Below the pieces are notes generated by a model. It was not told where the DNA came from and searched no databases. It saw nothing but the letters and a program-made list of their open reading frames with translations. A stretch of 59,811 nt of DNA from the IMG/VR virus record IMGVR_UViG_3300023199_000016, positions 1-59,811 of that record. The stretch is one strand, 5' to 3'. This DNA is from a virus. Taxonomy: Duplodnaviria; Caudoviricetes. The stretch's first letter is position 1; every line of letters begins with the position of its first letter. This document shows positions 6,615 through 35,659 of this stretch, piece by piece. The translations under genes were made by a program, and so were the position numbers.

Positions 6615-6663
6615 GACGTGCAGTGCTCGGATTCCAGTGAGAGGAGCTGTATCCTTCCGATAG

Positions 6664-6692: not shown

Positions 6693-6705
6693 TAGGGAGT
6701 GCACG

Positions 6706-11069: not shown

Positions 11070-11080
11070 TGAACGTTCCT

Positions 11081-13869: not shown

Positions 13870-14414
13870 GACGTTACCTCCTGTCCGTTGTAGTCGAGTT
13901 CGAGAATGCCGCCGTGCTCCGACACGCAATGTTGAACCGCCTGTGCGAACGTGTCGAGAATCGAGTTGCCTTTCTCGTCCAACGGTTCAAACCGATGATG
14001 TTCCCACTTCTGAAGAATCCACGCAGCCGGCACGCCGTGCTGAAGCAGGTAAGAGAACTGCATTGCAATCATGTCGATCAATGCTTGCATGATGCTGCCC
14101 TCTTTACTGATTTTTATAAAGACCTCGCCCGGCTGTGCGTTCTCATAGAAGCCGACCGTCACGTAGCCTTCGTAAGAGCCATGCACGATCTTGTGCGTCT
14201 TGCTCGATCGTGTCGCTTCCAGTCGAATGCGTGGGTTGCCTCGAGGCTGCACGAGCGGTCGAATGGCGGGCGGATCGACGGGCGTCACCCAACGCATCAC
14301 GATCGCCCGGGCATGTTGCTCTGTCATCTCTTCAGTCGCGGGATTGTCCTTGCTCATTCCGATCAAGTCGCTCACAGCTTTGTCGATGTCAATCGTCGTT
14401 GTGTTCTTTGCCAT
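13866..14414 (-). CDS. stand-alone TSCPD domain (class II ribonucleotide reductase C-terminal-like)
   Basis: GYVTVGFYENAQPGEVFIKISKEGS...SYLLQHGVP...RFEP...SILD. Confidence 0.75.
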   Translation of the reverse strand: MAKNTTTIDIDKAVSDLIGMSKDNPATEEMTEQHARAIVMRWVTPVDPPAIRPLVQPRGNPRIRLEATRSSKTHKIVHGSYEGYVTVGFYENAQPGEVFIKISKEGSIMQALIDMIAMQFSYLLQHGVPAAWILQKWEHHRFEPLDEKGNSILDTFAQAVQHCVSEHGGILELDYNGQEVTS

Positions 14415-17370: not shown

Positions 17371-18399
17371 CTACGCTCCTTTCACCATTGCATTGATCCA
17401 CTCAAACGTTTCTTCAAGCCCTTCACGAAGCGACCAAGCGGGCTCCCATCCAAGCTTATCACGAATCAATGCGTTGTGACTGTTTCTGCTCTGTACGCCT
17501 TGTGGTTTGGTCGTGTCATACGCTCGCACAAGGTTCGGCTTGCCCGCGATGTCTTGAATGATATCACACATTTCGTTGATCGTCACACACTCTTCAGAGC
17601 CGATGTTGACCGGACCGTGGAACGTTCTTGATCCCATCAAGCGAAGTACAGCATCGAGGCAGTCTTCAATGTACAAGAACGATCGACGTTGTTCACCGTC
17701 GCCCCAGACTTCAATCTCGCTCTTTCCGTTGACGCCCGCCTTTGCAATCTTACGGCACAATGCGGCGGGCGCCTTCTCTCGTCCTCCTTCATACGTTCCG
17801 AACGGACCAAAGATATTGTGGAAGCGTGCGATCTTGATCGTATAACCGAAGTCACGTGCGAACGCTTGACACAAACGTTCGCCCGTAAGCTTCTCCCAAC
17901 CGTAGTCGCTGTCAGGATCGGCGGGATACACAATGTCCTCAGGCAAAGAGACAACATCGTGGTGCGACTGAACTTCAGTGGGATACACGCAGGCCGACGA
18001 AGAGAACAACATCTTTGGTGCGAACTCCCAGTGGGCGGCTTGATAGCGCATCCAGTGTAAGACCGACAACGTGATGCTCAAGTTGTTGTGAAGGATCTCT
18101 GCATCGTGCCCTTGATCTTGAATGAATCCGATACCGCCCATGTCAGCAGCGAAGTGAAAGATGTGATCGTACGGACCGCGTTGCATCAATGCGTTGATCG
18201 TTTGATCTCGATTGCGAAGATCAACCGACAAGTACTTATCGCATATCTCTCGCGCATCAAACCAGTCAGGCTTGGGTTTGATGTCGATGACATCGACTTG
18301 ACTGAGTTGCTGCAAGGCGTGCAGCCGTCTTGCAAGATGTGAACCGATGAAACCCGCACCGCCTGTGATAAGAATCCTCTTCTTGCTTACCTTACTCAT
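17371..18399 (-). CDS. GDP-mannose 3',5'-epimerase (extended SDR)
   Basis: TGGAGFIGSH, AADMGGIGFIQ, SSACVYP (catalytic Cys), YGWEK, RFHNIFGPFGT, GGREKAPAA.CRK (catalytic Lys), WGDGEQ.RSF; near-colinear with plant GME. Confidence 0.88.
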   Translation of the reverse strand: MSKVSKKRILITGGAGFIGSHLARRLHALQQLSQVDVIDIKPKPDWFDAREICDKYLSVDLRNRDQTINALMQRGPYDHIFHFAADMGGIGFIQDQGHDAEILHNNLSITLSVLHWMRYQAAHWEFAPKMLFSSSACVYPTEVQSHHDVVSLPEDIVYPADPDSDYGWEKLTGERLCQAFARDFGYTIKIARFHNIFGPFGTYEGGREKAPAALCRKIAKAGVNGKSEIEVWGDGEQRRSFLYIEDCLDAVLRLMGSRTFHGPVNIGSEECVTINEMCDIIQDIAGKPNLVRAYDTTKPQGVQSRNSHNALIRDKLGWEPAWSLREGLEETFEWINAMVKGA

Positions 18400-18823
18400 T
18401 ATGAACTCCTCGGCCTAACGGCCAAATGTAGTCTTCAAAGAGCAGCACGTTCCAATTGAAATCTTCATAGTGCAAGCTCTTAGTACAGAGATTGCTTTGA
18501 TGCGCACGATGAAAAGCGCGGCAACCCAACCAGTCTGGCTTTGGAGACTCGGGCAAGAACCGCTGCCACCATAAGAAGCACTCGAGCATTGTATCTTCGT
18601 AACCACGAGCACGCCACTCATTGCATATCGCAATTGCATATCGGACCAACCATGACTCGTGTCCTTTCCACATGCGTGTACACTTGTGATTGGCATAACC
18701 GTAGCTTGGCACAAGGCAACCGAATAATACTTGCAAGCATTCGCTTCGTTGCTTGCCTAGTCGCCGTTGGTCTAAGCACCGTGCGCTTCGTTCAAAGCTT
18801 GGATACGGTAGAAACGTTTGCAC
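18392..18823 (-). CDS. pyrimidine dimer DNA glycosylase / endonuclease V-like (MSMEG_6728-type)
   Basis: MQTFLPY...LD..RLGKQR.E..Q...NH....MW.G...EW..RGY...P.WLG...H..HQSNL..K. Confidence 0.85.
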   Translation of the reverse strand: MQTFLPYPSFERSARCLDQRRLGKQRSECLQVLFGCLVPSYGYANHKCTRMWKGHESWLVRYAIAICNEWRARGYEDTMLECFLWWQRFLPESPKPDWLGCRAFHRAHQSNLCTKSLHYEDFNWNVLLFEDYIWPLGRGVHNE

Positions 18824-23508: not shown

Positions 23509-25506
23509 TCAAGCCGCACGCGGGAGGTGGAACACAGCATCATCGGACGATGCTTCACGCCACGTTGACGTTGCATACCCGCCTTCCACAGTGATCGGCA
23601 CTCTAAACCGATTCTCTTCACCGTGCAATTCAAGTGTGTCACGAATGTATTGACGTACTTCATTGCTCTCTCCTACATCGCGTGAACAGGCGAATAAGAA
23701 TTCATCGTGCACGCACGCCGCGACACGAATGCCAAGATCACGAATCATCGAGTTATATCGCGGTGCGATCTGAACAAGCTTTGCTTTCATCACATCAGCA
23801 GCACAAGATTGAATGATCGAATTGAATGCGCGATAAGCAAACATTATTGGGAGATGGCGTCGGCGACCGTACGCATTCTTGACCCAACCTCGTCCTTCGG
23901 CCAAAGCCACAGCACGATCACTCGTCGCTTTGATTCCTGGGAACGTTCTGTGATAGGTGTTGTACACCTTGCGTGCTCGACGTTCGCACAGTGATTGGAA
24001 GCGACGCGCTTTCTGGCTTGGTCGAATCTTTCCTGCTGCAATCTCTTCATCGACGACGTGCGAAAGGTCCTTCACCAAAGCAGGCTCGCCCGCGAGCATC
24101 GTAAGAACCTTATGCCGACCGCCACCATAGGCGATTGCAAAGTTGACGTTCTTAGCGGGCTTACGTGGTATGCCACACAAGTCAGCGACGAATTGATGAA
24201 AGTCCGTATCGGGATTCTCTGCATACGCCCTGATCGCTTTCTCATCGCGTATGTAGTGACAGATAAGTCGAAACTCGATTTGTGAGTAGTCGAATCGCAA
24301 GAAGCATTCTGAATCAACCGGATGAACCAGCTCTTTCGCCTCGGGCGATAACTGCTGTGCATTCGGGTTCTTACTTGACATTCGACCGGTGCGCACAGAT
24401 TGGTTGTACGTGGGATGCAAGATACCGTCGATGTTGAGCTCTTGATACGGACGAACAAAGAAACCAAGCAGAGTGTTGAGCTTACGCCACGAAAGCAACT
24501 TATCGAAGAACTCATACATCGAATCGTCGGACATCACCTCGGGCAATCGTTGATATGCGGCGAGAGCGTCCTTGTTGAACGACGGGTTGAGCAACGAATC
24601 ATCGCCCTCTTCCTCTGCCTTCTCGATTGAACCCTTCGTGTATTCAACGGCGGGCAGCCCGAAGTGGTTCATGATCACATCAGCGATGCTATCTGGTGTA
24701 CCCGGCGAGAACATTCGACCGACATGATTGTGCATCCATTCTTCAAGTTGCACCATACGTTGCAGTGTGGTGATCTCTTTGGCGACGAGTTCGGTTTCAT
24801 CAACTCTTAGGCCTTCGTTCTCGATGTCGTACAATACAGGCGTAAGAAGTATCTCGTTGTCCCACACCTCCTTGACTTCGCTTGGCCTTCGCTTGCACAT
24901 GTACTTCCACAGAAGCCGGTTCATCTGAACGTCCATGCATGCATAACGCCCAAGCAAGTCCGGTGGCGTATCGCCAAAGTCTTTGGTCTTCGCAGCCTCG
25001 AGCCAAGCGTGTAAGAGTTGCTCTTCACGAAGGTCCATGTCGAGCCAGTCTTCGCTCAAGTCTTTCAGCCCGTAGCCCTTGCCACCATATCCTCGGTCGC
25101 TGTCGATCAACTTTGCGAGAGTCATTGTGTCAACAAGACGCCCACCAAACTCTGCACCTTCATTCGTACAGAAGTGCGCATCAAACTTGACGTTGTGATT
25201 CACCCAATCATTATTGGCACCGACGGTCTCTTTCAACCAGCGATGCACCTGTTCAATCGGTAAGCATCGATGTTCGTAGTCCCAGTGGCGTATCGGTATG
25301 TAGTACGCATCCGGGTTATCATCGTGCGTTACTGCGATGCCGGCAATCTCATCGCCGTGCCATGGCGATATTGCCTTGAGCTTAGGGTCGCCGCTCGTCG
25401 TTTCAACGTCGAGGTATAGCTCGCGTGCACCACGCAAGTCCGGTAGTGGGTCGCCCGGCTCGAGCATCTTACATCGTTGACCGCTTTGTACTCGTAAGTC
25501 GATCAT
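23509..25506 (-). CDS. polA: DNA polymerase family A with 3'-5' exonuclease
   Basis: LDVETT, HNVKFD, YACMD exo motifs; RTGRMSS, FDYSQIEFR, AKNVNFAIAYG, VHDE. Confidence 0.95.
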   Translation of the reverse strand: MIDLRVQSGQRCKMLEPGDPLPDLRGARELYLDVETTSGDPKLKAISPWHGDEIAGIAVTHDDNPDAYYIPIRHWDYEHRCLPIEQVHRWLKETVGANNDWVNHNVKFDAHFCTNEGAEFGGRLVDTMTLAKLIDSDRGYGGKGYGLKDLSEDWLDMDLREEQLLHAWLEAAKTKDFGDTPPDLLGRYACMDVQMNRLLWKYMCKRRPSEVKEVWDNEILLTPVLYDIENEGLRVDETELVAKEITTLQRMVQLEEWMHNHVGRMFSPGTPDSIADVIMNHFGLPAVEYTKGSIEKAEEEGDDSLLNPSFNKDALAAYQRLPEVMSDDSMYEFFDKLLSWRKLNTLLGFFVRPYQELNIDGILHPTYNQSVRTGRMSSKNPNAQQLSPEAKELVHPVDSECFLRFDYSQIEFRLICHYIRDEKAIRAYAENPDTDFHQFVADLCGIPRKPAKNVNFAIAYGGGRHKVLTMLAGEPALVKDLSHVVDEEIAAGKIRPSQKARRFQSLCERRARKVYNTYHRTFPGIKATSDRAVALAEGRGWVKNAYGRRRHLPIMFAYRAFNSIIQSCAADVMKAKLVQIAPRYNSMIRDLGIRVAACVHDEFLFACSRDVGESNEVRQYIRDTLELHGEENRFRVPITVEGGYATSTWREASSDDAVFHLPRAA

Positions 25507-25508
25507 GT

Positions 25509-26015
25509 TTACTTGCTTGCTTTGCTTTCGTTGATAAGACCACCGGGCTGGAAGACCAGCCCTTTCTTTGATTCATACGCTTCAACATACGATTCATCGC
25601 CGATCACAAGACGCCAATGTGTCACACCCGCAAGCTCAAGAATCTGCAAGCCCCGATCGTCACTGTAGAAGTTTGACCAATACACTAAGTCGATTGCACC
25701 GCTGTTGACGATTGCAGTGGCGCATCTCCAGCACGGTGCGGTCGTGCAGTATAATGTTGCGTCTTTGATCGCTTGTGAATCGAGCTTGTTGATTGCGTTC
25801 TGCTCAGCGTGTGCACAACCACAGTCTTGCTTGATACCGGAGCAGAACGAGTGAGGCAGCTTTCGTGCCGGTCCGTTGTATCCGATTGAATGCACGGCGC
25901 TGAAGTCCTTGGGAAATACGATTGCACCACATGCTAGTCGCTTACATACTGAAAGCGCGGCAAGCTCATGGGCGAATCGAGCCATCACGATAAGCTTACG
26001 CATTGATCGTTGCAC
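25509..26015 (-). CDS. dCMP deaminase
   Basis: IGYNG, HAEQNA, APCWRCA; GTG start after GAAAGGAAAG. Confidence 0.9.
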   Translation of the reverse strand: MQRSMRKLIVMARFAHELAALSVCKRLACGAIVFPKDFSAVHSIGYNGPARKLPHSFCSGIKQDCGCAHAEQNAINKLDSQAIKDATLYCTTAPCWRCATAIVNSGAIDLVYWSNFYSDDRGLQILELAGVTHWRLVIGDESYVEAYESKKGLVFQPGGLINESKASK

Positions 26016-26595
26016 GGTGCTTTCCTTTCGTATTGAAGACAAGTCCAGTGCGCTCTTGTTCATGTCTTCGATCAAGATACTGATCGACGATGTCATTGGC
26101 AAACTGGCTTGGCCACCGTTCACCATTGGAAACTATCGGGTAGTCGACCTTGCAAACACCGGAGTCACTAAGTCGAATGAACTCATTGTTCACTTGCACG
26201 ATCTCAGTAAAGCGATACATCTCTTTACTTTGATCGCACTTGGCCCATTGATCCGCGAGGAAACGATTATGATTATCCCCTCCTCGCTCAGCGATACAAA
26301 GCACGACGAATCCGCAGTGCAGAGTTGTCCAAGCGTCGAGAGTTTGTAAGCCCGCGGCGCTAAGCGTCTCTTGATTCTGAAGTGCTTGACCGTATGCCTG
26401 ACGACTCAAGTAGAACCGATCCCACACGACGTTCGGATTCATCAACGGAATGTAGTCGGTATACTTATCAAACGACTCGGGTAACTTACTAAGAGGCAAC
26501 GGTATGTGCGACTCGCCCAGCTCGTTCAATCGTTTGACGAGTGCACGAACAAGAGTCGTCTTGCCAACAAGATCGGTTCCTTCAACGATAATCAT
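25996..26595 (-). CDS. deoxynucleoside monophosphate (thymidylate-kinase-like) kinase
   Basis: IIVEGTDLVGKTT P-loop; WDRFYLS. Confidence 0.85.
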   Translation of the reverse strand: MIIVEGTDLVGKTTLVRALVKRLNELGESHIPLPLSKLPESFDKYTDYIPLMNPNVVWDRFYLSRQAYGQALQNQETLSAAGLQTLDAWTTLHCGFVVLCIAERGGDNHNRFLADQWAKCDQSKEMYRFTEIVQVNNEFIRLSDSGVCKVDYPIVSNGERWPSQFANDIVDQYLDRRHEQERTGLVFNTKGKHRATINA

Positions 26596-26598
26596 GAC

Positions 26599-27639
26599 TT
26601 AGTCCTTTGCAATCTGAATGTCGTGAGCCGCTTTCAATGCGGGTGAGAACGGATTGAACGGTTCATTAGGGAACCAACGCGTGCGTACGCATCGAACAAG
26701 ATCGGACATCAACGAACCGTGACCGCACATCGCATCGATCATATCATCGGATACACGATCTCGATTCTCTCGCATACGCTCCTCGAGCTCCATTGCATTG
26801 TTGATCGCTTGAGAGATCGGTCGCCCGTGCCACTTCCAGTCTGTGATCAGGTGATCTTGAGTGGCTGGGTCAAAGATGTCAAGGTCGTCAGGCTTGAGAT
26901 TCCGATCGTACAAGTGCATGCTTCCAACGTTGTGCGTATACGTTCCGGGCATACACTTGATCGCCTCGGCAATCAATCGTTGTAAGCAGGTGAAAGCAAA
27001 GACGTCATATGGGAACCCCAACCAAATATCGTTGCTTCGCATGTAGGTGATCGCATGAAGTCGGTCGTTGCGTCGAATGAACTGCACACCAAGGGTGCAA
27101 GGTATGTCGCCTTTCGACCCAGTGATTGAATGTAGTAAGTCACCCGCATTCCACATGGTGATCACGCACTGTCTTGTATTAGGTTGACGTTGAAGCAACG
27201 TGATTGCGGCGCTGATCTGCGTGTTGAGCGGCAGGTCCCCAACCATCTGACCGTATTCTCTGTCACGCAAGTACGAACCAAGCGTACGAAGAAACACAGG
27301 ATCATTCGTCCATCGCCAACCGTATGCACCGTGTGCCACACCGAACTCAGCGAAGCGATCGTATTGTGGCGCATATTGATGTATCATCTCGATGTCACGG
27401 TCGCCTCGACAATACCAAAGGAACTCCGCCGCAGCATAGGCGACGCTCAACTTGCGCTTTGGGTGTAAGACGAAGGTTTGGGTCAGGTCACGCAGTTTGA
27501 ATACATGCCCAATCAATTCGCGGCACCCACCGTCGCGACTCTTCAGTCGATTGCCGTTGTGTGCGAGGTCGTTGTAAAGAACTGGCCACGTGAGTGAGAT
27601 CGAATTGCTTACAAGATCATGCGGTGTTTGGGGTGACAT
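26599..27639 (-). CDS. thymidylate synthase-family dCMP hydroxymethylase/hydroxylase
   Basis: DIPC181, MRSND, GFPYD212 (Asp at the E. coli TS Asn177 position, as in T4 gp42), SMHLY. Confidence 0.8.
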   Translation of the reverse strand: MSPQTPHDLVSNSISLTWPVLYNDLAHNGNRLKSRDGGCRELIGHVFKLRDLTQTFVLHPKRKLSVAYAAAEFLWYCRGDRDIEMIHQYAPQYDRFAEFGVAHGAYGWRWTNDPVFLRTLGSYLRDREYGQMVGDLPLNTQISAAITLLQRQPNTRQCVITMWNAGDLLHSITGSKGDIPCTLGVQFIRRNDRLHAITYMRSNDIWLGFPYDVFAFTCLQRLIAEAIKCMPGTYTHNVGSMHLYDRNLKPDDLDIFDPATQDHLITDWKWHGRPISQAINNAMELEERMRENRDRVSDDMIDAMCGHGSLMSDLVRCVRTRWFPNEPFNPFSPALKAAHDIQIAKD

Positions 27640-28852
27640 GGTCTCTGTCTTTCTTTCGTGGAATACGCTGCGGTGCGTATTGCGTTATGTTGAATACTTT
27701 CTCATCAGGAGTTTCGTCAAACCACTGCCCTTGCCATTCTCCGTGCGTATCGGAGTAAGACGACTCAAAGTTCTCGCCGCCCCACTGATCATCAAGATAG
27801 AGCAAGGCCTGCTTCGCCAACCACTCGCCGGCACAAGGGCAAACGCCTTTGGCGATTTGACCGACAGGGTTCCAGCCTTTGGGCAAGACATCCTTATCCC
27901 AACCCATAAGTAATGCAAGTTCACGAACCGTCAACGGTCGATCAAGCTCGGGATGTAAGAAACGTCCGGCACTTCCGTGAATTGTTGGACAAGCACGATC
28001 CCACTCAACACGACGAATACAATGCGCACTGAACGGCATCTTAGATTGTGCGAGTGCAGAGATGTCCGCAAACCCGTCGGCACCTCGAGCCTCAAAGACG
28101 TCTGGTCGGTAGTTATGCAGGACGTTCAAGCATTCGCCCTGCCTCAACTCCGGCACCATCGCCCATTCATCCGTTGTCAAACGTTGGTATGAGTTCCCGT
28201 TGTACTTGCACTCCTTCGCACCAAGTGGCCGTTCATCAGAATGCTTTGGCTTTGATTGCTTGAATCGACCGATGATATCACGCACAGTCGCGTGCTCTGT
28301 GACAAGGTTGTCGGGTGGTTCAATGTTGAACGGTCGATCACGCTTGTAAGCGGCGAAGAAGTATCGCTTACGATGTTGTGCGTTACCAAACGTCGCAGCA
28401 TTGATGAACAGGTGCGCGATTGCATAACCGTTTGGCACGAATACGTTGTCACGCAAATAGTCAAGCAACGGTCGGCCCGTCGTGTAAGCTTGTTGAACCG
28501 ACTCCCAGATGCCAAGTTCAAACTGGCCTTTCACAGTGAACCAAGCGAAGTCATGAATGTCACACGTCGCCTTTGCCCAAGGACCGTGTCGGCCATCATC
28601 ATAGCCTCCGGTCAACGTAGAGAAGGCAGTACACCGCGGGTTGCCAAAGACAAACACAGCATTCTTGTAGAGTGATAGGGCTTCGTGCCAAGCTTCGCGA
28701 TTTGGTGTATTCACGAAGTCAATACCCATCCCTTCAACGGTATCTTTGCCAAGACCGTGAAGTTCAAACTGTGCGGGTACGTTGAACACTTTACGAACGC
28801 CTTGTGTAAAGCCACCCGCGAACACATGACAACCTACAGCGGTGTACGTCAT
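27617..28852 (-). CDS. C5-cytosine DNA methyltransferase-like protein with atypical motifs
   Basis: FAGGF (I), GNPRC (IV), WESV (VI), AQHRKRYF (VIII), RPLTVRELALLMG (IX), QIAKGV (X). Confidence 0.8.
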   Translation of the reverse strand: MTYTAVGCHVFAGGFTQGVRKVFNVPAQFELHGLGKDTVEGMGIDFVNTPNREAWHEALSLYKNAVFVFGNPRCTAFSTLTGGYDDGRHGPWAKATCDIHDFAWFTVKGQFELGIWESVQQAYTTGRPLLDYLRDNVFVPNGYAIAHLFINAATFGNAQHRKRYFFAAYKRDRPFNIEPPDNLVTEHATVRDIIGRFKQSKPKHSDERPLGAKECKYNGNSYQRLTTDEWAMVPELRQGECLNVLHNYRPDVFEARGADGFADISALAQSKMPFSAHCIRRVEWDRACPTIHGSAGRFLHPELDRPLTVRELALLMGWDKDVLPKGWNPVGQIAKGVCPCAGEWLAKQALLYLDDQWGGENFESSYSDTHGEWQGQWFDETPDEKVFNITQYAPQRIPRKKDRDHVTPNTA

Positions 28853-28855
28853 TGG

Positions 28856-29341
28856 TTACTCCTGAACGTTTCGACGATGCTCCTCAATGATACGAAGCAA
28901 GTCGGGCGGTTCGTATGTATTGCCCTTATGACGAAGACGCTCCGATCCATCAGCTTCTTTCGTCATGTTGCTTCGTTGAACCTCGAGGAAGCCAGCATCG
29001 AAAGGCAACCCAAAGGCGACAGCAGTGCCGACCAACACGTACACGGCGTCACAGAGTCCGTCAAGCGTCTGCACTTCGTTGCACTGTGACATCGCAACGA
29101 GAAGCTCACCGACCTCTTCGACGATAAGATGAGCGCGAATCAAACGCAAGTCATAGTCACCGGGACGATCCATGTCCGGATGAAGTGTACCATTCTCCCA
29201 CGCTTTCGATAGTTCGATAAGCATGATGCCAATGCGGTTCAACTCTGAACTCGCACCAAGTGTTTGACGTTCGAGTGGTTCGTTGATTGCGAACCCGTGC
29301 TTGCTGTGAAACTCTTTCAGCATTTGTTCATACGATCTCAT
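28856..29341 (-). CDS. MazG-like/PRA-PH all-alpha dNTP pyrophosphohydrolase
   Basis: EEVGEL...DGLCDAVYV...VQRSNMTK. Confidence 0.85.
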   Translation of the reverse strand: MRSYEQMLKEFHSKHGFAINEPLERQTLGASSELNRIGIMLIELSKAWENGTLHPDMDRPGDYDLRLIRAHLIVEEVGELLVAMSQCNEVQTLDGLCDAVYVLVGTAVAFGLPFDAGFLEVQRSNMTKEADGSERLRHKGNTYEPPDLLRIIEEHRRNVQE

Positions 29342-29357
29342 GATGCTTTCCTTTGCT

Positions 29358-30575
29358 TTATTGAATCACGTATCCCATTCCATCCGCAGCATCGACCATG
29401 CGGTCACGTAGATGCTGCGTCATATTGAACAACACTTCGTCCTCGCCCATCGCTGTGAAGAACTCATTCATGATGCAACGAATCTCTGCATCCGCATGAT
29501 CCGACATACGCATCTCAAAGATGTGATTCCACTGACGTAGACTTGCGCTGAAGATGAGTTGCGTTTCAAGTGCGTTACCGAGTAGACCGCGTGCTGCGCC
29601 GCGAGCTTGCTTACGCGCTTGTGCAACCGACGTCTTCTGATTTGTCTTGATCCATGCAGCAAGCAAATCGTGTTGTGCAATATAAGCAGCGATCGCCGCG
29701 CCTTGCGTTTCAAGGTAACGCGCGTAAGTTGCCTTCTTCAACTCTTCGGTCTCAGTCTTGTTCTTACCTTTCAATTCGTCCACGTACTTGAACCACAGAG
29801 GGTGCGGCCACCACGGTGTATTCGCTTCGTTACAGAAGCGTGTGCTTCGCTGGCTTATCGCCGTGAAGTCACCGTGACGAACAAGTTCGTGACTGAATCC
29901 TCGACTTCCTTTGAAGAATCCAGTCACCCACGTTGAGTCGGGCGTGATAGGTCCGCGTTGGTGCTTATCAAAGTACACCCCGACCAACCCGCCCACTCGC
30001 GTCTCAAGATCCTTGGGCAACGATAGATCAACGATCTTATTCGCACGAAGCTCGCGACGAAGGTTCTCGATGATCTGTGTTGCAAGATGCGCACTATACG
30101 GGTTGACGTCTTCGAGTCGAAGCAGTGACGACCACGAATCCCACTCGAGAACCGTGTGCATATTCATCGTGATGTTCACATGCGGAAGGTTGACCGATTC
30201 AAGCTCCTCCTCTTCATCGTACGTTGCGACCAATGGGAAAGAGTCGATCCAAACGCCCGGACGATTCAAGAATACGGTGGCGGTGTCAACGTTCCACGGG
30301 TACAACTTGAAGGTAAAGTTGCAATGTTCGTAGACCGATAGATGCCCGACGTCACGTACGTGTTGGTGCCACTCTTCGCTTGAGCGGCCAGAGCCGAACG
30401 AGTCGTAGCATACACGGCCCGCGACCTCCGCCAATTGATCGAGAGCGGTGCCTTGAAGTTGGTCGTCTTTCGGTTCGCCCATTGCTTCGGGCAGTCGCAC
30501 CTCACCGTCGGTTGTTGAATAAACAAGGTGGGCGCGTTCATCGTCAAGAGTTGCGAGTTGTATTCCAAAGGGCAT
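29358..30575 (-). CDS. thyX: FAD-dependent thymidylate synthase
   Basis: AGRVCY, GHLSVYEH, SRGFSHELVRH...SQRSTRF, ARGAARGLL, R...HADAEIR. Confidence 0.9.
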   Translation of the reverse strand: MPFGIQLATLDDERAHLVYSTTDGEVRLPEAMGEPKDDQLQGTALDQLAEVAGRVCYDSFGSGRSSEEWHQHVRDVGHLSVYEHCNFTFKLYPWNVDTATVFLNRPGVWIDSFPLVATYDEEEELESVNLPHVNITMNMHTVLEWDSWSSLLRLEDVNPYSAHLATQIIENLRRELRANKIVDLSLPKDLETRVGGLVGVYFDKHQRGPITPDSTWVTGFFKGSRGFSHELVRHGDFTAISQRSTRFCNEANTPWWPHPLWFKYVDELKGKNKTETEELKKATYARYLETQGAAIAAYIAQHDLLAAWIKTNQKTSVAQARKQARGAARGLLGNALETQLIFSASLRQWNHIFEMRMSDHADAEIRCIMNEFFTAMGEDEVLFNMTQHLRDRMVDAADGMGYVIQ

Positions 30576-30584
30576 GACGGGCTC

Positions 30585-30800
30585 CTATTCATCGTCATCA
30601 TCGAAGACATATTCATTGTGCACTAACGCTAGTGCAACTTCAAGTGCTGGAAAGTTCTTGACATGATCGCATTGCGTCACCAACCACGTCAGGTATTCGG
30701 GGTCATCTTCAGCGATGTTACCTAGGCGACGCCCGCGATACTTTCCGAAAGGCATGATCATCGCGATTGCAGAGTCTACGCTAAGCTCATCGGGGTGCAT
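30585..30800 (-). CDS. small MPFGKY-motif protein (DUF3820/ExoX C-terminal-like)
   Basis: IMPFGKYRG..L..I...DPEYLTWL; GGAG RBS before ATG at 30800. Confidence 0.7.
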   Translation of the reverse strand: MHPDELSVDSAIAMIMPFGKYRGRRLGNIAEDDPEYLTWLVTQCDHVKNFPALEVALALVHNEYVFDDDDE

Positions 30801-30801
30801 A

Positions 30802-33774
30802 TTAGAACTCCTCTTCCTCTTCATCAACAAAGTCCGGTCGGTCGGCCTTCGCCGCGTCGCCGGAATCACGCAACGTACGAAGCATGTCAATGAAGCCCGG
30901 TGTCTTTCGATACGTTCGGTCACAGCGTGTAAGCGCGTTCTTACGAACAAGCAATGATAGAAGCTTGGTTGCTCGCTCACGCGTCCACCCGCACCAATCG
31001 CATATGTCAGCAAATGCGATGTTGTCCGTTGCCAACATCTTCAAGACGAAGTCCGACGGGAAGGGCACATCAGTGAGAATACGATCGCGCACTCGTCGTG
31101 AATCATCTGGTGTCATACTGGTTGCGGCGAGCATTGCAGAAGAGAACTCTTTATATCCGCAAGCGTTATCAGAATACAACCTATCGAGAGTTTCTGCGAT
31201 GAACTCGACGTGACACCGTCGAATCACCAGCACGTTACGGTCGTCATCATCGTGACTGAACGTTCGCGCCGCTAAGCCCGCTGATAATCGTGCTAACTTG
31301 AATCGCATTGAGCCTCGATCAACGATCGGCATTGATTCACTGTACATTCCGCACAACCACACTGCTTTATCAAGGATCGCTTCTTCTGCTGCATTGGTGA
31401 ATCGTACTTGTGGCACGCCGCGGGTCCACGCCCAAAGAATGTTTCGTCTGCATAATTCCGATGTGTACTGATGCGGCACCTTTGGTCGCTTGCGCATCAA
31501 CTTGTTTATCTCGTTGACCGGCACTTGTCCCTCGGCGACGATAAGCACGGCATCAAATCGACGAATATCTTCAAGCGAGCCGATCAACTCTTTCACTGCC
31601 TCCACACCAAAGTTGTACGCAGCAAGCGGTCGATCACTGCGTGGATTGCTTACCATCACAAGCCGCGTTCGTGCATGTGATCGTCGCTTCTCGATCTTTG
31701 GTATTTCAGCGATGCCAGTCGATCGCATATCGGTCAACTTACCAAGCACCTCGGTGCTGGTCCCTTTGATCTCTTCAAGAATCACCAGTCTCTTGTCGTG
31801 CGTTGGGATCACGCCCCACGTAACGAACCACCGATTATTGCCTAACTGCTGTAAGCCACCAAGCAGGCCAGCAACCGTTGCATTCTTACATTCAATTCGT
31901 TCACCCAAACCGTAGTGACGCATCATACGAAGCGTGCTTTCAGATTTGCCCTGTGCAGTATCACCAACGATCAAGAGCTCGCCCCAACCTTTCTCCAACC
32001 TGCTGTCAAACTCGAACAAGAGTGGCGTGTGATAGATAACGTCAACCATCAAGTGCATATCACGACGATGAAAGATGCGTGTCACATTTGCTTCAAGATC
32101 TTCATACACTTGATTCAATCGTGCGTGCAACGATTCAACGGTCCACTCTTTCGGCTTGAAGATCGCGAGCTCATCAAGCTCATCCTCTTTCGGTTTGAAT
32201 TGGTTTAGGCTGTCTTCGGATAGTGCAAGATCGTTGGCGAGCAAGATTGCTTGCTGCGTCTTTGGATGCGGCCACGATCGACCAATCAACCGATAGGCGA
32301 CATTCGACTCCACCTCTTTCGATACAATGTATGCCGGTCGTGTAACGTGTTGGTCATCGCGTCGGCCTATTTCAAGTTGGGGCGTTAGTCTAACATCGTG
32401 TACGTTGTAGAACGTTCGCGGTGTGAACTCTACAACGTCGCACGGCGGCATGCACAACGCATCCAGTATCCACTTGCGATGTTTATCCGTTGACGTTTCA
32501 ACCATACCGATAAGTGCGGGCGATTGTGCAGAGATCGTTAGGTCAACAAATCCGTGTTCATCTGGTTTCTTGTGAAAGACTGGACATTCAATACAGAACT
32601 CTTTGTTTCGGGTGCACGAGCATCGCACATCCTTTGGCAACAAGTACGGCGCCGTATCAATCGCCGACACAACGGCGGTCAATCGTACACGCTTCCCGGT
32701 TCGTTCTGCATCGGCGGCTTGATGAAGATCGATGTCCTCCGGTTCGTTACGATCAAGTGGTTCCTTTACTTGAAGCGCAGGTGGTTCCCAAAGCGGCGCA
32801 CGCTTTATCAAACCGATAAGATCGGCGCTCGTCGCATCTTCACGGCCAAACCAATCATTCACATCGCCGTGTGGATACTTCGATTCATCAAGCGGCAATT
32901 CAGCCACTCGAACTTTCTTAGCGTATGCGCTTAGCATCGCCGCTACTCGATCAGTCGCTTTCTTACCTTCTGTATCAATGTCGAATAGGATGACAACGTC
33001 TTTGCCTTCAAGCAAGTGCGACAGTGATGGGTCCCAATTGCTCTCGCCGCCCGTTGCACTTACGGCGCCAATCTTCGACGGGTTCAAGTAGTGCTTACAC
33101 AGAACCGCTTTGAGTTCGCCGCCACAGATGACTATCGTATTGAATCGGTCAACTTGTTCTTCTTGATACAAGCGAAGCTTTCCGTAGCCCCGCGTGTTAC
33201 GCATCTTCTGATCACCAGGCGCACCGGGCATGTATCGACGAATGTTGACGATGAACCCGTCTTTGTCTTGCACGGGTATCGTGATGCGGCCTTTGTTTAT
33301 GCCAAGCTTTGCGTCACGAATCATCTCATCAGTTATGCCGCGCTTACGAAGTTCGCGAAGAGAAGGATTCGCTTCCCAGATTGCGTTGTGATATTGTTCG
33401 ACGAGCTTGGGGTTGAGAACTTTCTCTTGACGCAGACCGGCGTAACGCGAGCACAAGTCTTCATAGACCGCGACACGCGTTGTGTTCAATGCATTCGCTA
33501 AGAATGATAGGATGTCGCCACTGGCCTCGCACCCGGCGGTGTAACATCGCCACTGGTTCTTCTCAACGTTGATCGATGCGGAAGGGTTCTTATCGTCGTG
33601 ACACGGACAGGCCACACGAGCTTCATCCCCTTGAAGATCGTACTTCCAGCCTATGCGCTCCAACTCAGCAAGCGCGTTTATCTTTGTCAAGTCGATGTTC
33701 GCCACTACACGCCTCAACTTCAAGCACAAGAAAAGTTGCACGACCAATAAAGGCCGTGCAACCGTATCTCCCAC
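30802..33774 (-). CDS. DnaG-type primase (CHC2 Zn finger + TOPRIM) fused to an MCM-like AAA+ helicase
   Basis: CPCHDDKNPS...WRCYTAGC; FDID; CSC...CIECP; GDTAQGKS, TVAGLLGG, VILEE, IRRFD; true start may be slightly downstream. Confidence 0.85.
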   Translation of the reverse strand: MGDTVARPLLVVQLFLCLKLRRVVANIDLTKINALAELERIGWKYDLQGDEARVACPCHDDKNPSASINVEKNQWRCYTAGCEASGDILSFLANALNTTRVAVYEDLCSRYAGLRQEKVLNPKLVEQYHNAIWEANPSLRELRKRGITDEMIRDAKLGINKGRITIPVQDKDGFIVNIRRYMPGAPGDQKMRNTRGYGKLRLYQEEQVDRFNTIVICGGELKAVLCKHYLNPSKIGAVSATGGESNWDPSLSHLLEGKDVVILFDIDTEGKKATDRVAAMLSAYAKKVRVAELPLDESKYPHGDVNDWFGREDATSADLIGLIKRAPLWEPPALQVKEPLDRNEPEDIDLHQAADAERTGKRVRLTAVVSAIDTAPYLLPKDVRCSCTRNKEFCIECPVFHKKPDEHGFVDLTISAQSPALIGMVETSTDKHRKWILDALCMPPCDVVEFTPRTFYNVHDVRLTPQLEIGRRDDQHVTRPAYIVSKEVESNVAYRLIGRSWPHPKTQQAILLANDLALSEDSLNQFKPKEDELDELAIFKPKEWTVESLHARLNQVYEDLEANVTRIFHRRDMHLMVDVIYHTPLLFEFDSRLEKGWGELLIVGDTAQGKSESTLRMMRHYGLGERIECKNATVAGLLGGLQQLGNNRWFVTWGVIPTHDKRLVILEEIKGTSTEVLGKLTDMRSTGIAEIPKIEKRRSHARTRLVMVSNPRSDRPLAAYNFGVEAVKELIGSLEDIRRFDAVLIVAEGQVPVNEINKLMRKRPKVPHQYTSELCRRNILWAWTRGVPQVRFTNAAEEAILDKAVWLCGMYSESMPIVDRGSMRFKLARLSAGLAARTFSHDDDDRNVLVIRRCHVEFIAETLDRLYSDNACGYKEFSSAMLAATSMTPDDSRRVRDRILTDVPFPSDFVLKMLATDNIAFADICDWCGWTRERATKLLSLLVRKNALTRCDRTYRKTPGFIDMLRTLRDSGDAAKADRPDFVDEEEEEF

Positions 33775-33782: not shown

Positions 33783-34649
33783 TTACATCTCGGTTTCTTC
33801 TTCGTCGCCGCCACTAAGGCCGTCCTCAGTCGCGGGAGTTGCCTCGAGGTCGGTTTCATCGAGGTCCTCGCTTGGCACGAGCTTGGATCGTTCGTGCAGG
33901 TCTTTCAATTCGAGATGCTGTTCCTTGAGGTATGCAAACTGTTCGGCATCCTGAACCCAGCCCGCAGACTGAAAGTCCAGTCCCCACCAGTCGCCGCCGT
34001 TACGCGGCGGACGAAGTCGAGGAGTGAACCGAATACGTTGCCCGTAGACGGGCGCCTTGCGTGAAGTGAGCAAGCCGCAAAGATTGCGACCGGTGATGTG
34101 CTCTGCACGAGCGAATCCAATGAGAACAATCTGCTCGTGCATCGGATGACCGGGCATATCAACAATGCAAACGAAGTTGAGAACCTCCGTATGCATGATC
34201 TTGAATTGCGGGTTGTCCGGGTCCTTCTCTTCGCGAAGCTCAGGGTTGCGAGCTTTCTGAACAATCGGATCCTTCTTGTCGGTCGTGCGATACCGGATCA
34301 TACCGGCAGCTTGATTCTTGATGTCGTTGCATGTCATCCATTCGGGGAAGAAGAACAGCGGGATCACCTCAAACGGCTCGCCCTCTTCGTCGTTGTCATC
34401 GCTTGGAAGCGAAAGCACCTCTTGCGTTGAAGCAACGATGCACGTGCCAACGTCGAAGCGTTCCTTGAGAACACGTTGTGAAGAGTCCTGCACGATCTTC
34501 AGTCGAGGAACAACACGGTACTCTTCCATGACCTCCGTGCCGGTCTCCTCTTCTTGTGCGATGAACTCTGGCATCGTCTCTTCTTCAGGACGAGTGGCGA
34601 GCGCCTTGGCGTCATCACCATTGCGCTTGGTTGTCTTTTTCTTCGCCAT
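33783..34649 (-). CDS. putative single-stranded DNA-binding protein
   Basis: VPRLKIVQ.SS motif, acidic C-terminal tail, position between helicases. Confidence 0.55.
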   Translation of the reverse strand: MAKKKTTKRNGDDAKALATRPEEETMPEFIAQEEETGTEVMEEYRVVPRLKIVQDSSQRVLKERFDVGTCIVASTQEVLSLPSDDNDEEGEPFEVIPLFFFPEWMTCNDIKNQAAGMIRYRTTDKKDPIVQKARNPELREEKDPDNPQFKIMHTEVLNFVCIVDMPGHPMHEQIVLIGFARAEHITGRNLCGLLTSRKAPVYGQRIRFTPRLRPPRNGGDWWGLDFQSAGWVQDAEQFAYLKEQHLELKDLHERSKLVPSEDLDETDLEATPATEDGLSGGDEEETEM

Positions 34650-34701: not shown

Positions 34702-35295
34702 TCAGAGATTTGCTTTCGGATTCTTTCTCAAAGTCAACTTATAGATGGGGTAGGTCTTTGACGGATCGATGCCAGGTATGTTGACCGTACCATCACGCAT
34801 CATCGCAGTCACGAATGAAACGAGCGTAGGCCAGTGTGGCATGAACGCCTTGTGCTGCACCATGCTGCTGGGCAAACCAAGAGCGACGCATAAGTCCATG
34901 AACTCTTGCGTGTCGCGCTTTGGCATGTTCACACCATACTTCACATCAATTGATCCGGTCGCAAATCGACCACGCACCTTGTCGGTTGCTTTGGACTCGT
35001 CCTCGAGCCCTTCTTGCGACACGCGTAAGCATGTCACATTCGTGATCATATCAAGTAGACGGTTCGTCTCCTTTCGTATGTCGTCATGAAGCTTACTCAA
35101 TTCACGCAAGACGTAAGCAAGATCAACGGTGTCAACGTTGCTTATGCTTCCAGTTTGGACCGCCTTACGGAACTCCACCAAACGTTTGTATGTCCGTTGA
35201 TGCAACTCCTCACAGTGGTGCAACATCGTAACGGCGGTGTCAACCCTTTCATCAGGGTGTGCTTTATCAGACTGCTTTTCTTTCTTCTTCGCCAT
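34702..35295 (-). CDS. conserved phage replication-module hypothetical protein
   Basis: 197 aa; HWPTL..FV...PGI motif; AGGAG RBS. Confidence 0.65.
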   Translation of the reverse strand: MAKKKEKQSDKAHPDERVDTAVTMLHHCEELHQRTYKRLVEFRKAVQTGSISNVDTVDLAYVLRELSKLHDDIRKETNRLLDMITNVTCLRVSQEGLEDESKATDKVRGRFATGSIDVKYGVNMPKRDTQEFMDLCVALGLPSSMVQHKAFMPHWPTLVSFVTAMMRDGTVNIPGIDPSKTYPIYKLTLRKNPKANL

Positions 35296-35659
35296 GAGCG
35301 GCTCCTGTCATAAGATCGTCTACACTAAGTGATCGTTCTTCGTAGTCGCCAGAGACAGCGTTGAATGCAAGCAAGCGTATCGTTCCGTATCGTTGGAAAG
35401 CGACCGCCACGGCGATGCTCACCGCCATCATCTGACCCGTCAAGCAAATGTAGTCTTTCTTGGGGTCATACCGATAACTCTCGAGAGTGCGAATCGTCAA
35501 CGGTGCAAACTCATGAACCAAGAAGGGCACAACTTTGTTATCCATGAGAGTCACAATGTCGCCAAAGTCCGCAGCACCAGACACATCAAGATTCGGCTTA
35601 GGCGACTGTATGAAGAACACCCGCGGAGTGGGGTCAACAAGTTCGTGTTCGGTCGTCAT
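35267..35659 (-). CDS. small alpha/beta protein, paralog of 37833-38165
   Basis: LDV..AADFG...DYICLTG...RLLAFN....YEER. Confidence 0.65.
   Translation of the reverse strand: MTTEHELVDPTPRVFFIQSPKPNLDVSGAADFGDIVTLMDNKVVPFLVHEFAPLTIRTLESYRYDPKKDYICLTGQMMAVSIAVAVAFQRYGTIRLLAFNAVSGDYEERSLSVDDLMTGAAHGEEERKAV

What the first reader, a model, noticed from the sequence alone, without database searches (positions are those of the whole stretch)
27617..28852. C5-MTase homolog with a natural Asn->Lys in motif X: candidate DNA carboxymethyltransferase
Seen in sequence: motif X reads QIAKGV where C5-MTases have Q(F/I/A)GN(S/A)V, placing Lys335 (codon 27848-27850) at the conserved Asn. Motif IV is PRC instead of PPC, motif VI is ESV instead of ENV, and motif I is FAGGF instead of FxGxGG. 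Established: the engineered motif-X Asn->Lys mutants M.MpeI N374K and Dcm N436K use carboxy-SAM to make 5-carboxymethylcytosine. Inference: this enzyme may naturally transfer a carboxymethyl or other anionic group, with Arg73 next to the catalytic Cys74 possibly helping. It overlaps the dCMP-modifying gene, so the phage may carry two cytosine chemistries. No CmoA-like Cx-SAM synthase was recognised in the window, so the host would have to supply the cofactor.
Basis: partly seen in the sequence, partly recalled or inferred. Interest (0 to 1): 0.8.

Follow-up and report, generated by a model that had tools for sequence, protein, structure and literature searches.

The report
Lysine-type cytosine methylase look-alike, hmC phage
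This phage gene encodes a DNA cytosine-methylase look-alike with a rebuilt cofactor pocket, and its viral relatives always occur in genomes that also carry a gene likely to make hydroxymethyl-cytosine nucleotides, so it probably helps build a still unknown modified DNA base.

Summary
ORF 27617-28852(-) is a 411-aa C5-methyltransferase-fold protein with NPRC, ESV and QIAKGV, and K335 aligns to M.HhaI Asn304.

Natural DNA carboxymethyltransferases were published in 2025 (CmoX, with Arg at this site). This protein fails CmoX's sequence filter (SPPC plus Arg).

- No CmoA was found in the window's complete genome or in 50 of 50 related viral records. The same search found CmoA in 5 of 5 CmoX-type records.
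- No CmoY-type ligase was found in any of these 51 genomes.
- A thymidylate-synthase-fold gene was found in 50 of 50 related records. Where the phmmer-detected neighbours could be read, they carry the dCMP-type Asp (79 of 83 loci).
- In the window that gene overlaps the methylase look-alike, and its best solved relative is MilA CMP hydroxymethylase.
- The usual order is MazG, look-alike, TS homolog, kinase.
- The catalytic Cys, Glu and RxR residues are kept in at least 233 of 237 relatives. The basic motif-X residue is K or R in 210 of 237.

Best reading (0.4): an enzyme of an undescribed cytosine hypermodification that acts on hydroxymethylcytosine DNA. Carboxymethyl transfer with host Cx-SAM remains possible (0.25).

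Earlier follow-ups of this scan noted similar lysine- or arginine-type look-alikes on other genomes.

The parts
27617..28852 (-). C5-methyltransferase-fold gene, 411 aa (P0001), lysine-type look-alike
   Evidence: ORF. PF00145 E 2e-11. AF2 model pLDDT 90.3. Foldseek top hits are C5-MTases: M.HaeIII TMt 0.72; CmoX 8yf3 at rank 22, 14% identity.
28808..28828 (-). Motif I, residues 9-15 HVFAGGF, non-canonical (canonical FxGxGG)
   Evidence: H9 in 185 and F11 in 217 of 237 relatives. The register is ambiguous.
28631..28642 (-). Motif IV, residues 71-74 NPRC: catalytic Cys74 preceded by Arg73 instead of Pro
   Evidence: Invariant in 30 of 30. Among 237 relatives: C74 233; position 73 is R 174, P 57.
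28496..28504 (-). Motif VI, residues 117-119 ESV (canonical ENV)
   Evidence: E117 235 and S118 235 of 237. SpCmoX has ENV.
28364..28378 (-). Motif VIII, residues 159-163 QHRKR (QxRxR)
   Evidence: Q159 233, R161 235, R163 235 of 237.
27848..27850 (-). Codon of Lys335, at the motif-X Asn position (M.HhaI N304, SpCmoX R350)
26599..27639 (-). Thymidylate-synthase-fold gene, predicted dCMP 5-hydroxymethylase; overlaps the look-alike by 23 nt
   Evidence: PF00303 E 3e-27. Best PDB match is MilA CMP 5-hydroxymethylase 5b6d at E 1.3e-26, against 1.7e-18 for the best TS. C181, D204 and D212 are invariant in 21 of 21.
28856..29341 (-). MazG/PRA-PH-type nucleotide pyrophosphohydrolase, directly upstream (3-nt gap)
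   Evidence: PF01503 E 1.5e-9. phrog_671. Found in 22 of 27 related loci.
25996..26595 (-). Small P-loop kinase, directly downstream of the TS-fold gene
   Evidence: Thymidylate_kin P-loop only. Family profile's best PDB hit is SPbeta YorR 2axp at E 3e-13. Found in 22 of 27 loci.
25509..26126 (-). dCMP deaminase (start uncertain; the ORF overlaps the kinase ORF)
   Evidence: PF00383 E 3.3e-13. Found in 8 of 27 loci.

Best explanation
The gene encodes a catalytically competent enzyme of the DNA cytosine-C5 methyltransferase fold. It belongs to a large clade found so far only in viral records, and the gene is a fixed part of a phage cytosine-replacement cassette: MazG-type pyrophosphatase, this gene, MilA-like dCMP hydroxymethylase, small kinase. 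My inferred mechanism is as follows. The TS-fold enzyme, kinase and MazG fill the dNTP pool with 5-hydroxymethyl-dCTP, and the phage polymerase builds hmC-DNA. This enzyme then flips a cytosine-type base out of the new DNA and attacks C6 with Cys74, helped by Glu117 and Arg161/Arg163, as all C5-methyltransferases do. The pocket that normally faces the methyl group is rebuilt: Arg73 for Pro, Thr75 for Gln, Ser118 for Asn, Lys335 for Asn, and an altered motif I. This pocket is roomier and positively charged, so it would hold a larger, probably anionic group at C5. I think the most likely substrate is 5-hydroxymethylcytosine itself, with exchange or alkylation of its hydroxymethyl group, giving an undescribed hypermodified cytosine. 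Plain cytosine carboxymethylated with CmoA-made carboxy-SAM seems less likely. Shown here: the fold, the motif states, the clade-wide conservation, the gene linkage and the absence of CmoA and CmoY. Inferred: hmC in the DNA, the substrate, the cofactor and the product.
For: - Fold and catalytic residues. AF2 model pLDDT 90.3 and C5-MTase top hits. C74 is kept in 233, E117 in 235, and R161 and R163 in 235 of 237 relatives.
- Pocket changes are clade-wide. S118 is present in 235 of 237. Position 335 is K 179, R 31, Q 14, N 7. Position 73 is R 174, P 57.
- Linkage in the close family, 27 viral loci. TS-fold neighbour in 26, polymerase 26, primase-helicase 25, kinase 22, MazG 22. The look-alike is printed immediately upstream of the TS gene in 23 of 27. 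In L016, where my ORF filter lost it, the TS gene also lies directly downstream.
- Whole records. PF00303 is found in 50 of 50 records that carry a clade member, and in 24 of 24 of those at least 90% complete.
- TS type. Of 83 TS neighbours found by phmmer in 103 non-duplicate sources, 79 read Asp/Asp at the D169 and N177 equivalents, 4 could not be read by the pattern, and none read Asn. The best solved relative is MilA CMP 5-hydroxymethylase. Asp at 177 marks dCMP specificity and D169N marks 5-hydroxy-dCMP synthases (passages of PMC8670742; section 28 of PMC13326640).
- No Cx-SAM system. CmoA HMM gives 0 in the window's own genome (CheckV 100% complete) and 0 of 50 related records, against 5 of 5 CmoX-type records. 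SpCmoA and SpCmoY by phmmer give 0 of 103 sources, against 63 and 59 of 80 CmoX-type loci. Asn_synthase gives 0 in own and 0 of 50.
- Chemical precedent. Ordinary C5-MTases (M.SssI, M.HhaI) can couple aliphatic thiols to 5hmC and add a hydroxymethyl group to C (passages of PMC7176277).
- Viral records only, as far as searched. No relative in one genome each of 185,579 prokaryote species, by a pattern-seeded scan. The nearest ESM Atlas clusters are 98-100% viral.
Against: - No measurement shows that this phage's DNA contains hmC or any further modification.
- No natural enzyme of this fold is known to work on 5hmC.
- Asn-to-Lys is exactly the engineered switch to carboxy-SAM, and the natural CmoX has Arg there.
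- The family shares with CmoX an H..W.K insertion after motif IV (hhalign probability 95.7).
- The motif-II Glu that binds the cofactor ribose is kept (E30 in 226 of 237). This argues for a SAM-like cofactor rather than none.
- The N-to-K mutants still methylate with SAM, so plain methyl transfer is not excluded.
- The window also holds sugar-nucleotide and glycosyltransferase genes. These could use the same hydroxyl.
- The linkage counts include many near-identical loci, so independent lineages are fewer than the raw numbers.
- No background frequency of TS-fold genes in comparable phages was computed, apart from 0 of 80 short CmoX-type loci.
- The host is unknown and may supply Cx-SAM.
Confidence: 0.4

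Rival explanations
1. A natural Lys-type DNA cytosine-C5 carboxymethyltransferase. It would bind carboxy-SAM made by the host's CmoA, with Lys335 (and perhaps Arg73) holding the carboxylate. It would place carboxymethyl on cytosines that escaped replacement, or on all cytosines if the TS-fold enzyme does not replace them.
For: K335 aligns to M.HhaI N304. N-to-K mutants of M.MpeI and M.MedI gain carboxymethyl transfer. SpCmoX uses Arg350 at this site, and E. coli CmoA alone sufficed to supply it in vivo. The family shares an insertion after motif IV with SpCmoX. E30 and the catalytic residues are kept.
Against: CmoA is absent from the window's genome and from 50 of 50 related records, against 5 of 5 CmoX-type records and 4257 CmoA for 5615 CmoX in the paper. 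No CmoY-type ligase was found. SPPC and ENV are replaced by NPRC and ESV, and motif I is altered. The absolute linkage to a dCMP-hydroxymethylase-type gene is unexplained by this reading, and that gene would remove the substrate.
Confidence: 0.25
2. An ordinary SAM-dependent 5-methylcytosine DNA methyltransferase with drifted motifs. It would methylate a short motif in residual cytosine-containing phage or host DNA.
For: PF00145 and NCBIfam dcm superfamily matches. The catalytic Cys, Glu and RxR are intact. M.MedI N377K and M.MpeI N374K still methylate with SAM. Public sources name homologs 'site-specific DNA-cytosine methylase'.
Against: Four residues around the methyl pocket that are near-universal in the family (P, Q, N, N) are replaced clade-wide and then conserved. 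That is selection for something else, not drift. Scores are far below family cut-offs (35 bits against 100.65 for TIGR00675). The fixed gene position inside the hmC cassette is not expected of a restriction-evasion methylase.
Confidence: 0.15
3. A transferase of another SAM-derived or adenosyl-linked group onto cytosine C5 or onto the hmC hydroxyl. Examples would be 3-amino-3-carboxypropyl from SAM itself, or O-alkylation analogous to CmoB on 5-hydroxyuridine. Lys335 and Arg73 would bind the group's carboxylate.
For: The ribose-binding Glu is kept while motif I is rebuilt, which could re-orient SAM. The pocket is cationic. No extra cofactor synthase would be needed, which fits the absence of CmoA. 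That methyltransferase folds have evolved acp transfer, and that CmoB O-alkylates ho5U with Cx-SAM, is recalled knowledge and comes from no call here.
Against: There is no precedent in the C5-MTase fold. O-alkylation would not need Cys74, yet it is kept in 233 of 237. Nothing in the sequence distinguishes this from the other readings.
Confidence: 0.12

Closest known systems
CmoX of Synechococcus phage S-B43 (PDB 8YF3; Yang et al., Nat Commun 2025, PMC12783734), a Cx-SAM-dependent DNA cytosine C5-carboxymethyltransferase
   Same: Phage-encoded C5-MTase fold. A basic residue sits at the motif-X Asn (R350 against K335). Both have an H..W.K-type insertion after motif IV (hhalign probability 95.7). 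The catalytic Cys is present.
   Different: SpCmoX has a canonical FAGGGG motif I, SPPC and ENV; this protein has HVFAGGF, NPRC and ESV. CmoX sits beside CmoA and CmoY (63 and 59 of 80 loci). This family has neither and sits beside a TS-fold gene, which was found in 0 of 80 CmoX-type loci. Structural identity is 14%.
Engineered carboxymethyltransferases M.MpeI N374K and M.MedI N377K
   Same: The same single position carries Lys. In the mutants it is proposed to salt-bridge the Cx-SAM carboxylate (passages of PMC12015181).
   Different: Those are otherwise canonical CpG methylases that still methylate with SAM. Here Lys comes with three further pocket changes and an altered motif I, all conserved clade-wide.
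Canonical bacterial and eukaryotic C5-MTases (M.HhaI, M.HaeIII, DNMT1)
   Same: Fold, catalytic Cys, motif-VI Glu, QxRxR and motif IX.
   Different: Pro-Cys becomes Arg-Cys, ENV becomes ESV, GN becomes AK, and FxGxGG is altered. Found only in viral records.
T4-type cytosine replacement (dCMP hydroxymethylase gp42, dNMP kinase gp1, dCTPase gp56, dCMP deaminase); named from recalled knowledge
   Same: The neighbours are a TS-fold enzyme with Asp at the N177 position, a small kinase, a MazG-type pyrophosphatase and a dCMP deaminase.
   Different: T4 has no C5-MTase-fold member in the pathway; its post-replicative step is glucosylation.
Methyltransferase-directed derivatisation of 5hmC (M.SssI and M.HhaI side reactions, Klimasauskas laboratory)
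   Same: It shows that the Cys-C6 mechanism of this fold can exchange the hydroxyl of 5hmC for a nucleophile (passages of PMC7176277).
   Different: That is a laboratory side reaction of ordinary methylases without cofactor. No natural enzyme dedicated to it is known.

Membership tests
DNA cytosine-C5 methyltransferase superfamily (PF00145) | Overall fold and significant profile match | tested here: met
   PF00145 E 2e-11, 44.3 bits against a cut-off of 22. AF2 model with Foldseek E 1e-13 to 1e-16 to C5-MTases.
DNA cytosine-C5 methyltransferase superfamily (PF00145) | Catalytic Cys of motif IV, Glu of motif VI, QxRxR of motif VIII | tested here: met
   C74, E117, Q159/R161/R163 are invariant in 30 of 30 and kept in 233-235 of 237.
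DNA cytosine-C5 methyltransferase superfamily (PF00145) | Pro-Cys dipeptide, ENV, and Gly-Asn of motif X around the methyl pocket | tested here: not met
   Arg-Cys, ESV and Ala-Lys.
DNA cytosine-C5 methyltransferase superfamily (PF00145) | Motif I FxGxGG and motif II Glu (SAM binding) | tested here: inconclusive
   E30 is kept (226 of 237). Motif I reads HVFAGGF, and two alignments disagree on its register. No coordinates were available.
DNA cytosine-C5 methyltransferase superfamily (PF00145) | Transfers methyl from SAM to C5 of cytosine in DNA | not testable with these tools
   Needs an enzyme assay.
CmoX carboxymethyltransferases (Yang et al. 2025) | SPPC motif plus Arg at SpCmoX position 350 (the authors' own filter) | tested here: not met
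   NPRC and Lys335. The filter is quoted. The Lys is basic, like Arg.
CmoX carboxymethyltransferases (Yang et al. 2025) | [quoted passage not shown] | tested here: not met
   TIGR00740: 0 in own genome and 0 of 50 related records. Positive control 5 of 5.
CmoX carboxymethyltransferases (Yang et al. 2025) | AMP-forming amide ligase CmoY nearby (frequent, not universal) | tested here: not met
   PF00733: 0 in own and 0 of 50. SpCmoY by phmmer: 0 of 103, against 59 of 80 control loci.
CmoX carboxymethyltransferases (Yang et al. 2025) | Uses Cx-SAM to make 5-carboxymethylcytosine | not testable with these tools
   Needs expression in cmoA+ and cmoA- cells, or an in vitro assay.
Phage methyltransferase plus TET/5mYOX hypermodification systems | TET/JBP dioxygenase encoded with the methyltransferase | tested here: inconclusive
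   PF12851: 0 in own genome. No control genome scored over the cut-off, so the sensitivity of this search is unknown.

The most novel reading that the evidence does not exclude
This clade is a natural family of enzymes that turns the Cys-C6 chemistry of DNA methyltransferases onto 5-hydroxymethylcytosine already in DNA. The hydroxyl might first be activated, and the adjacent small kinase is a candidate for that. The enzyme would expel the hydroxyl, or its activated form, through an exocyclic-methylene intermediate and install another group, with Arg73 and Lys335 holding the leaving or entering anion. That would be a cytosine counterpart of the thymidine hypermodification route, built from a different fold, and it would yield one or more unknown DNA bases.
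Probability: 0.3. Interest if true: 0.9.

Novelty: new variant of a known kind. Interest (0 to 1): 0.6.

Why it matters
Phage DNA hypermodifications decide which restriction, CRISPR and glycosylase defences a phage escapes. They have also repeatedly given tools for epigenome sequencing; the engineered Lys mutants are already used that way.

This is a large clade of methylase-fold enzymes seen only in viral records. Relatives number 761 cluster representatives at E up to 0.001. The catalytic core is intact, the cofactor pocket is rebuilt, and the linkage to dCMP-hydroxymethylase-type genes is absolute in the sample examined.

Whichever reading is right, the product is likely a cytosine derivative that has not been described in these phages. 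Candidates are a Cx-SAM enzyme that relies on the host, an hmC-processing enzyme, or another alkyl transfer.

The question is directly testable with four genes and nucleoside LC-MS.

Tried and rejected
- **Close phage relatives by DNA.** blastn of 25500-31000 against 50,697 phage records gave no match. tblastn of the protein gave only 18 records at less than 35% identity, none cultured and close.
- **Residue-level view of 8YF3.** Searching the C-terminal 101 residues alone against PDB gave only chance-level hits.
- **Neighbour look-up.** I used the search for related loci instead.
- **Physical complex of the look-alike with the TS-fold protein.** The complex-prediction job gave no verdict. It says nothing either way.
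- **Host inference.** There is no tRNA gene. The SDR epimerase has only 32-49% identical relatives spread over many phyla. The host stays unknown.
- **Prophage or cellular relatives.** None were found by the pattern-seeded genome scan. That scan sees only sequences carrying the two seed motifs.
- **The 414-aa protein 12439-13683.** Another note calls it BGT-like. It had no Pfam, PHROG or PDB sequence match and homologs in only 2 of the loci held. I did not fold it.
- **Amide-ligase coupling.** Earlier notes reported this on other genomes. It was not seen in my 50 records.
- **Literature.** Searches found the CmoX paper but nothing on a Lys/NPRC/ESV family or on a C5-MTase tied to dCMP hydroxymethylase. 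Subscription papers and supplements were not visible. The CmoX paper's sequence network (its Fig. 8 and supplements) may contain neighbours that I could not see.
Full report
**The object**

All long ORFs near the finding lie on the minus strand. ORF 27617-28852 encodes 411 aa. It starts 3 nt after the stop of a MazG-type gene (28856-29341). It overlaps by 23 nt the start of a thymidylate-synthase-fold gene (26599-27639). Further downstream are a small P-loop kinase, a dCMP deaminase and a family-A DNA polymerase. Upstream are ThyX and a primase-helicase.

The window is a whole viral record of 59,811 bases, rated 100% complete by CheckV.

**Checking the observation**

A script found FAGGF at residues 11-15, NPRC at 71-74, ESV at 117-119, QHRKR at 159-163 and QIAKGV at 332-337. 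Lys335 is therefore codon 27848-27850, as stated. Pfam PF00145 matches at E 2e-11.

A profile of 30 homologs was searched against PDB sequences. It aligns the family's motif X to QFGNSVV of M.HhaI, and counting the printed alignment places the Lys on Asn304. It also aligns to QIGNSVSP of 3g7u and QVGNAVPP of DNMT1.

An AlphaFold2 model built on the 30-sequence alignment has mean pLDDT 90.3. Its best Foldseek matches are C5-methyltransferases:
- MET1 and DNMT1
- M.HaeIII, with TM 0.72 by target length
- 3g7u
- the carboxymethyltransferase 8yf3 at rank 22, with 14% identity

I could not make a residue-level structural superposition. No coordinates are returned, and the pdb_via library was absent.

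**The Lys is a family trait**

- The word-indexed search gave 307 proteins at E up to 0.001. The 119 listed besides the query are 43-52% identical.
- The exhaustive search of cluster representatives gave 761 at E up to 0.001 and 73 at E up to 1e-30.
- I aligned 30 of the 120 listed, chosen mostly for long contigs. N71 P72 R73 C74, E117 S118 V119, Q159 R161 R163 and Q332 K335 are invariant in them.
- I then aligned 237 of the 265 proteins held. The 28 outside 300-520 aa were dropped. Counts are in the table below.

| Position | Counts among 237 relatives |
|---|---|
| C74 | 233 |
| E117 | 235 |
| S118 | 235 |
| R161 and R163 | 235 each |
| E30 | 226 |
| H9 | 185 |
| F11 | 217 |
| Position 73 | R 174, P 57 |
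| Position 335 | K 179, R 31, Q 14, N 7 |

A wider clade therefore shares the odd motif I and ESV. Inside it, NPRC with Lys is the core family (161 sequences), and NPPC with Arg, Lys or Gln forms the outer branches.

The register of motif I is uncertain. HMMER aligns G13-G14 with the last two glycines of FxGxGG. A forced hhalign to CmoX aligns FAGG to FAGG with a two-residue gap (low confidence).

**What is known**

The literature search found Yang et al. (Nat Commun 2025, PMC12783734). I read its Results and Discussion and searched its Methods.
- CmoX of Synechococcus phage S-B43 is a natural DNA cytosine C5-carboxymethyltransferase.
- Arg350 replaces M.HhaI Asn304 and contacts the carboxymethyl group of Cx-SAM.
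- A phage CmoA makes the cofactor, and a ligase, CmoY, adds glycine.
- The authors collected 5,615 CmoX candidates by requiring SPPC and Arg350. They found 4,257 CmoA genes on those contigs.

Passages of PMC12015181 confirm that M.MpeI N374K and M.MedI N377K gain carboxymethyl transfer and still methylate with SAM. The Wang and Kohli paper was not held, so Dcm N436K is unchecked.

**Comparison with CmoX**

I fetched SpCmoX from MN018232.1. It has FAGGGG, SPPC, ENV and RVGRMVPP. Our family aligns to it with hhalign probability 95.7 over residues 66-324, and both share an H..W.K-type insertion after motif IV. Our family differs at SPPC, at ENV and at motif I.

**Genomic context**

*Close family.* A scan of IMG/VR with the family alignment gave 27 loci. 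blastp of the window's proteins against their ORFs gave the counts below.

| Neighbour | Loci with it (of 27) |
|---|---|
| TS-fold gene | 26 |
| DNA polymerase | 26 |
| Primase-helicase | 25 |
| Kinase | 22 |
| MazG | 22 |
| dCMP deaminase | 8 |
| ThyX | 1 |

The printed gene order is helicase, three small genes, primase-helicase, MazG, look-alike, TS, kinase, (deaminase), polymerase. The look-alike lies directly before TS in 23 of 27 loci. Exceptions:
- One extra ORF lies between them in L001.
- An HNH gene lies between them in L023.
- In L016 my ORF filter hid the TS gene; the HMM search places it right after the look-alike.
- L027 is a distant member with TS 4.2 kb away.

*Outer clade.* A second scan with an alignment of 38 NPPC-type proteins kept the best 80 of 115 relatives found; five of the 80 loci duplicate contigs from the first scan.

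*All sources.* Results over 103 non-duplicate sources:
- phmmer found a TS-fold neighbour in 83.
- Of these, 79 read Asp/Asp at the D169 and N177 equivalents, 4 were unreadable by my pattern, and none read Asn.
- SpCmoA and SpCmoY were found in 0 of 103.

*Whole-record HMM searches.*
- PF00303 was found in 50 of 50 records, and in 24 of 24 that are at least 90% complete.
- CmoA (TIGR00740) was found in 0 of 50.
- Asn_synthase was found in 0 of 50.

*Controls.*
- The CmoA search finds the gene in 5 of 5 CmoX-type records at E about 1e-34.
- My phmmer pipeline finds SpCmoA in 63, SpCmoY in 59 and TS in 0 of 80 CmoX-type loci. These loci are 86-97% identical to SpCmoX and have a median length of 6.9 kb, so they are a narrow control.

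*Caveats.* Many loci are near-identical. 50 of the 102 non-duplicate loci were covered by the whole-record searches. No general background for TS-fold genes was computed.

**The neighbour**

The TS-fold protein's best solved relative is MilA, a CMP 5-hydroxymethylase (E 1.3e-26, against 1.7e-18 for the best thymidylate synthase). In 21 family members the catalytic Cys181, Asp204 (= D169) and Asp212 (= N177) are invariant.

Two papers bear on these positions:
- Passages of PMC8670742 state that Asp at 177 marks cytosine substrates. They also say that TS, PRA-PH pyrophosphatase and dCMP deaminase domains co-occur on contigs with modified cytosine.
- Section 28 of PMC13326640 gives D169N as the mark of 5-hydroxy-dCMP synthases. 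That change is absent here.

The kinase family's best solved relative is the uncharacterised SPbeta YorR.

The cassette thus looks like a T4-type cytosine replacement set making hydroxymethyl-dCTP. This is an inference; nothing measures the DNA.

**Reading**

The catalytic core argues for an active enzyme that attacks C6 of a cytosine-type base. The positions that face the methyl group in ordinary methylases are all changed and then conserved, giving a roomier, cationic pocket: Pro to Arg73, Gln to Thr75, Asn to Ser118 and Asn to Lys335. That Gln82 and Asn304 of M.HhaI are the residues enlarged in engineered methylases for bulky cofactors is recalled knowledge and comes from no call here.

The absolute tie to the hydroxymethylase gene and the lack of CmoA and CmoY make a CmoX-type role on plain cytosine less likely. 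A role in processing hydroxymethylcytosine seems more likely. The fold has laboratory precedent for that chemistry (passages of PMC7176277).

Against this:
- Lys is the known Cx-SAM switch.
- The ribose-binding Glu is kept.
- The host could supply Cx-SAM.
- The mutants still methylate with SAM.

My odds:

| Reading | Odds |
|---|---|
| hmC processing | 0.40 |
| Host-fed carboxymethyl transfer | 0.25 |
| Plain methylation | 0.15 |
| Another alkyl group | 0.12 |
| Something else, or inactive | rest |

**Novelty**

Five literature searches found no description of this family. The clade has been seen only in viral records so far.

Earlier follow-ups of this scan noted similar lysine- or arginine-type look-alikes on other genomes and reached a similar reading. 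Those notes are not independent evidence, and I repeated the tests here. Their lead of an adjacent amide ligase was not seen in my sample.

I rate the finding a new variant of a known kind: the C5-methyltransferase/CmoX kind. Interest is 0.6.

Noticed in passing
window 9750-11189 (-), 17371-18399 (-), and one unlocated ORF among the 36 scanned: Sugar-nucleotide genes are present. There is a UDP-glucose dehydrogenase (PF03721/PF00984; phrog_9148) and an NAD-dependent nucleotide-sugar epimerase/dehydratase (PF01370 E 2.7e-43; phrog_540). One ORF has GT2 and Glyco_transf_7C matches (one search does not say which ORF). They may serve DNA or virion glycosylation.
   Followed up: partly
window 29358-30575 (-): A ThyX (PF02511, E 1.3e-26) with a long N-terminal extension coexists with the Asp-type TS-fold gene. 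A ThyX homolog is seen in only 1 of 27 close loci.
   Followed up: no
L031:16940-18049 (MW202657.1), protein P0266: This spring-water siphovirus has a TS-fold gene 40% identical to the window's, in the same replication module. It lacks the look-alike beside TS. After its polymerase it carries a still more divergent C5-MTase-like protein (NPPC, ETG instead of ESV/ENV, and SKGV with Lys), next to an FkbM-family methyltransferase.
   Followed up: partly
L009:8205-9203; L004:7061-7630; L024:14474-15910; L025:549-1802: Accessory genes inside or beside the cassette vary between relatives. Examples are a radical-SAM/SPASM protein between primase and MazG, a NUDIX hydrolase where MazG usually sits, a sugar nucleotidyltransferase and a GT2 glycosyltransferase. 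This suggests different final modifications on a common core.
   Followed up: no
L023 11221-11775; also L016, L017, L021, L024: HNH endonuclease genes (PF13392) are inserted at different points of the cassette. In L023 one lies between the look-alike and the TS gene.
   Followed up: no
window 33783-34649 and 35267-35659 region; L024:5046-5861; L015:3443-3799: Small conserved genes between the helicase and the primase match Pam3 gp34-like and gp32-like families (PF23977, PF23992). This links the replication module to that of cyanophage Pam3.
   Followed up: no
L112 (Actinomycetia phage DSL-LC01, OQ999401.1) 5809-7053: The best cultured-phage relative of the look-alike (25% identity, E 5e-9) sits among a MazG-like gene, a small class I SAM methyltransferase, two glycosyltransferases and a UDP-galactopyranose mutase.
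   Followed up: no
window 18392-18823 (-) and 13866-14414 (-): There is a pyrimidine-dimer DNA glycosylase (PF03013, E 1.2e-22) and a TSCPD-domain protein (PF12637).
   Followed up: no
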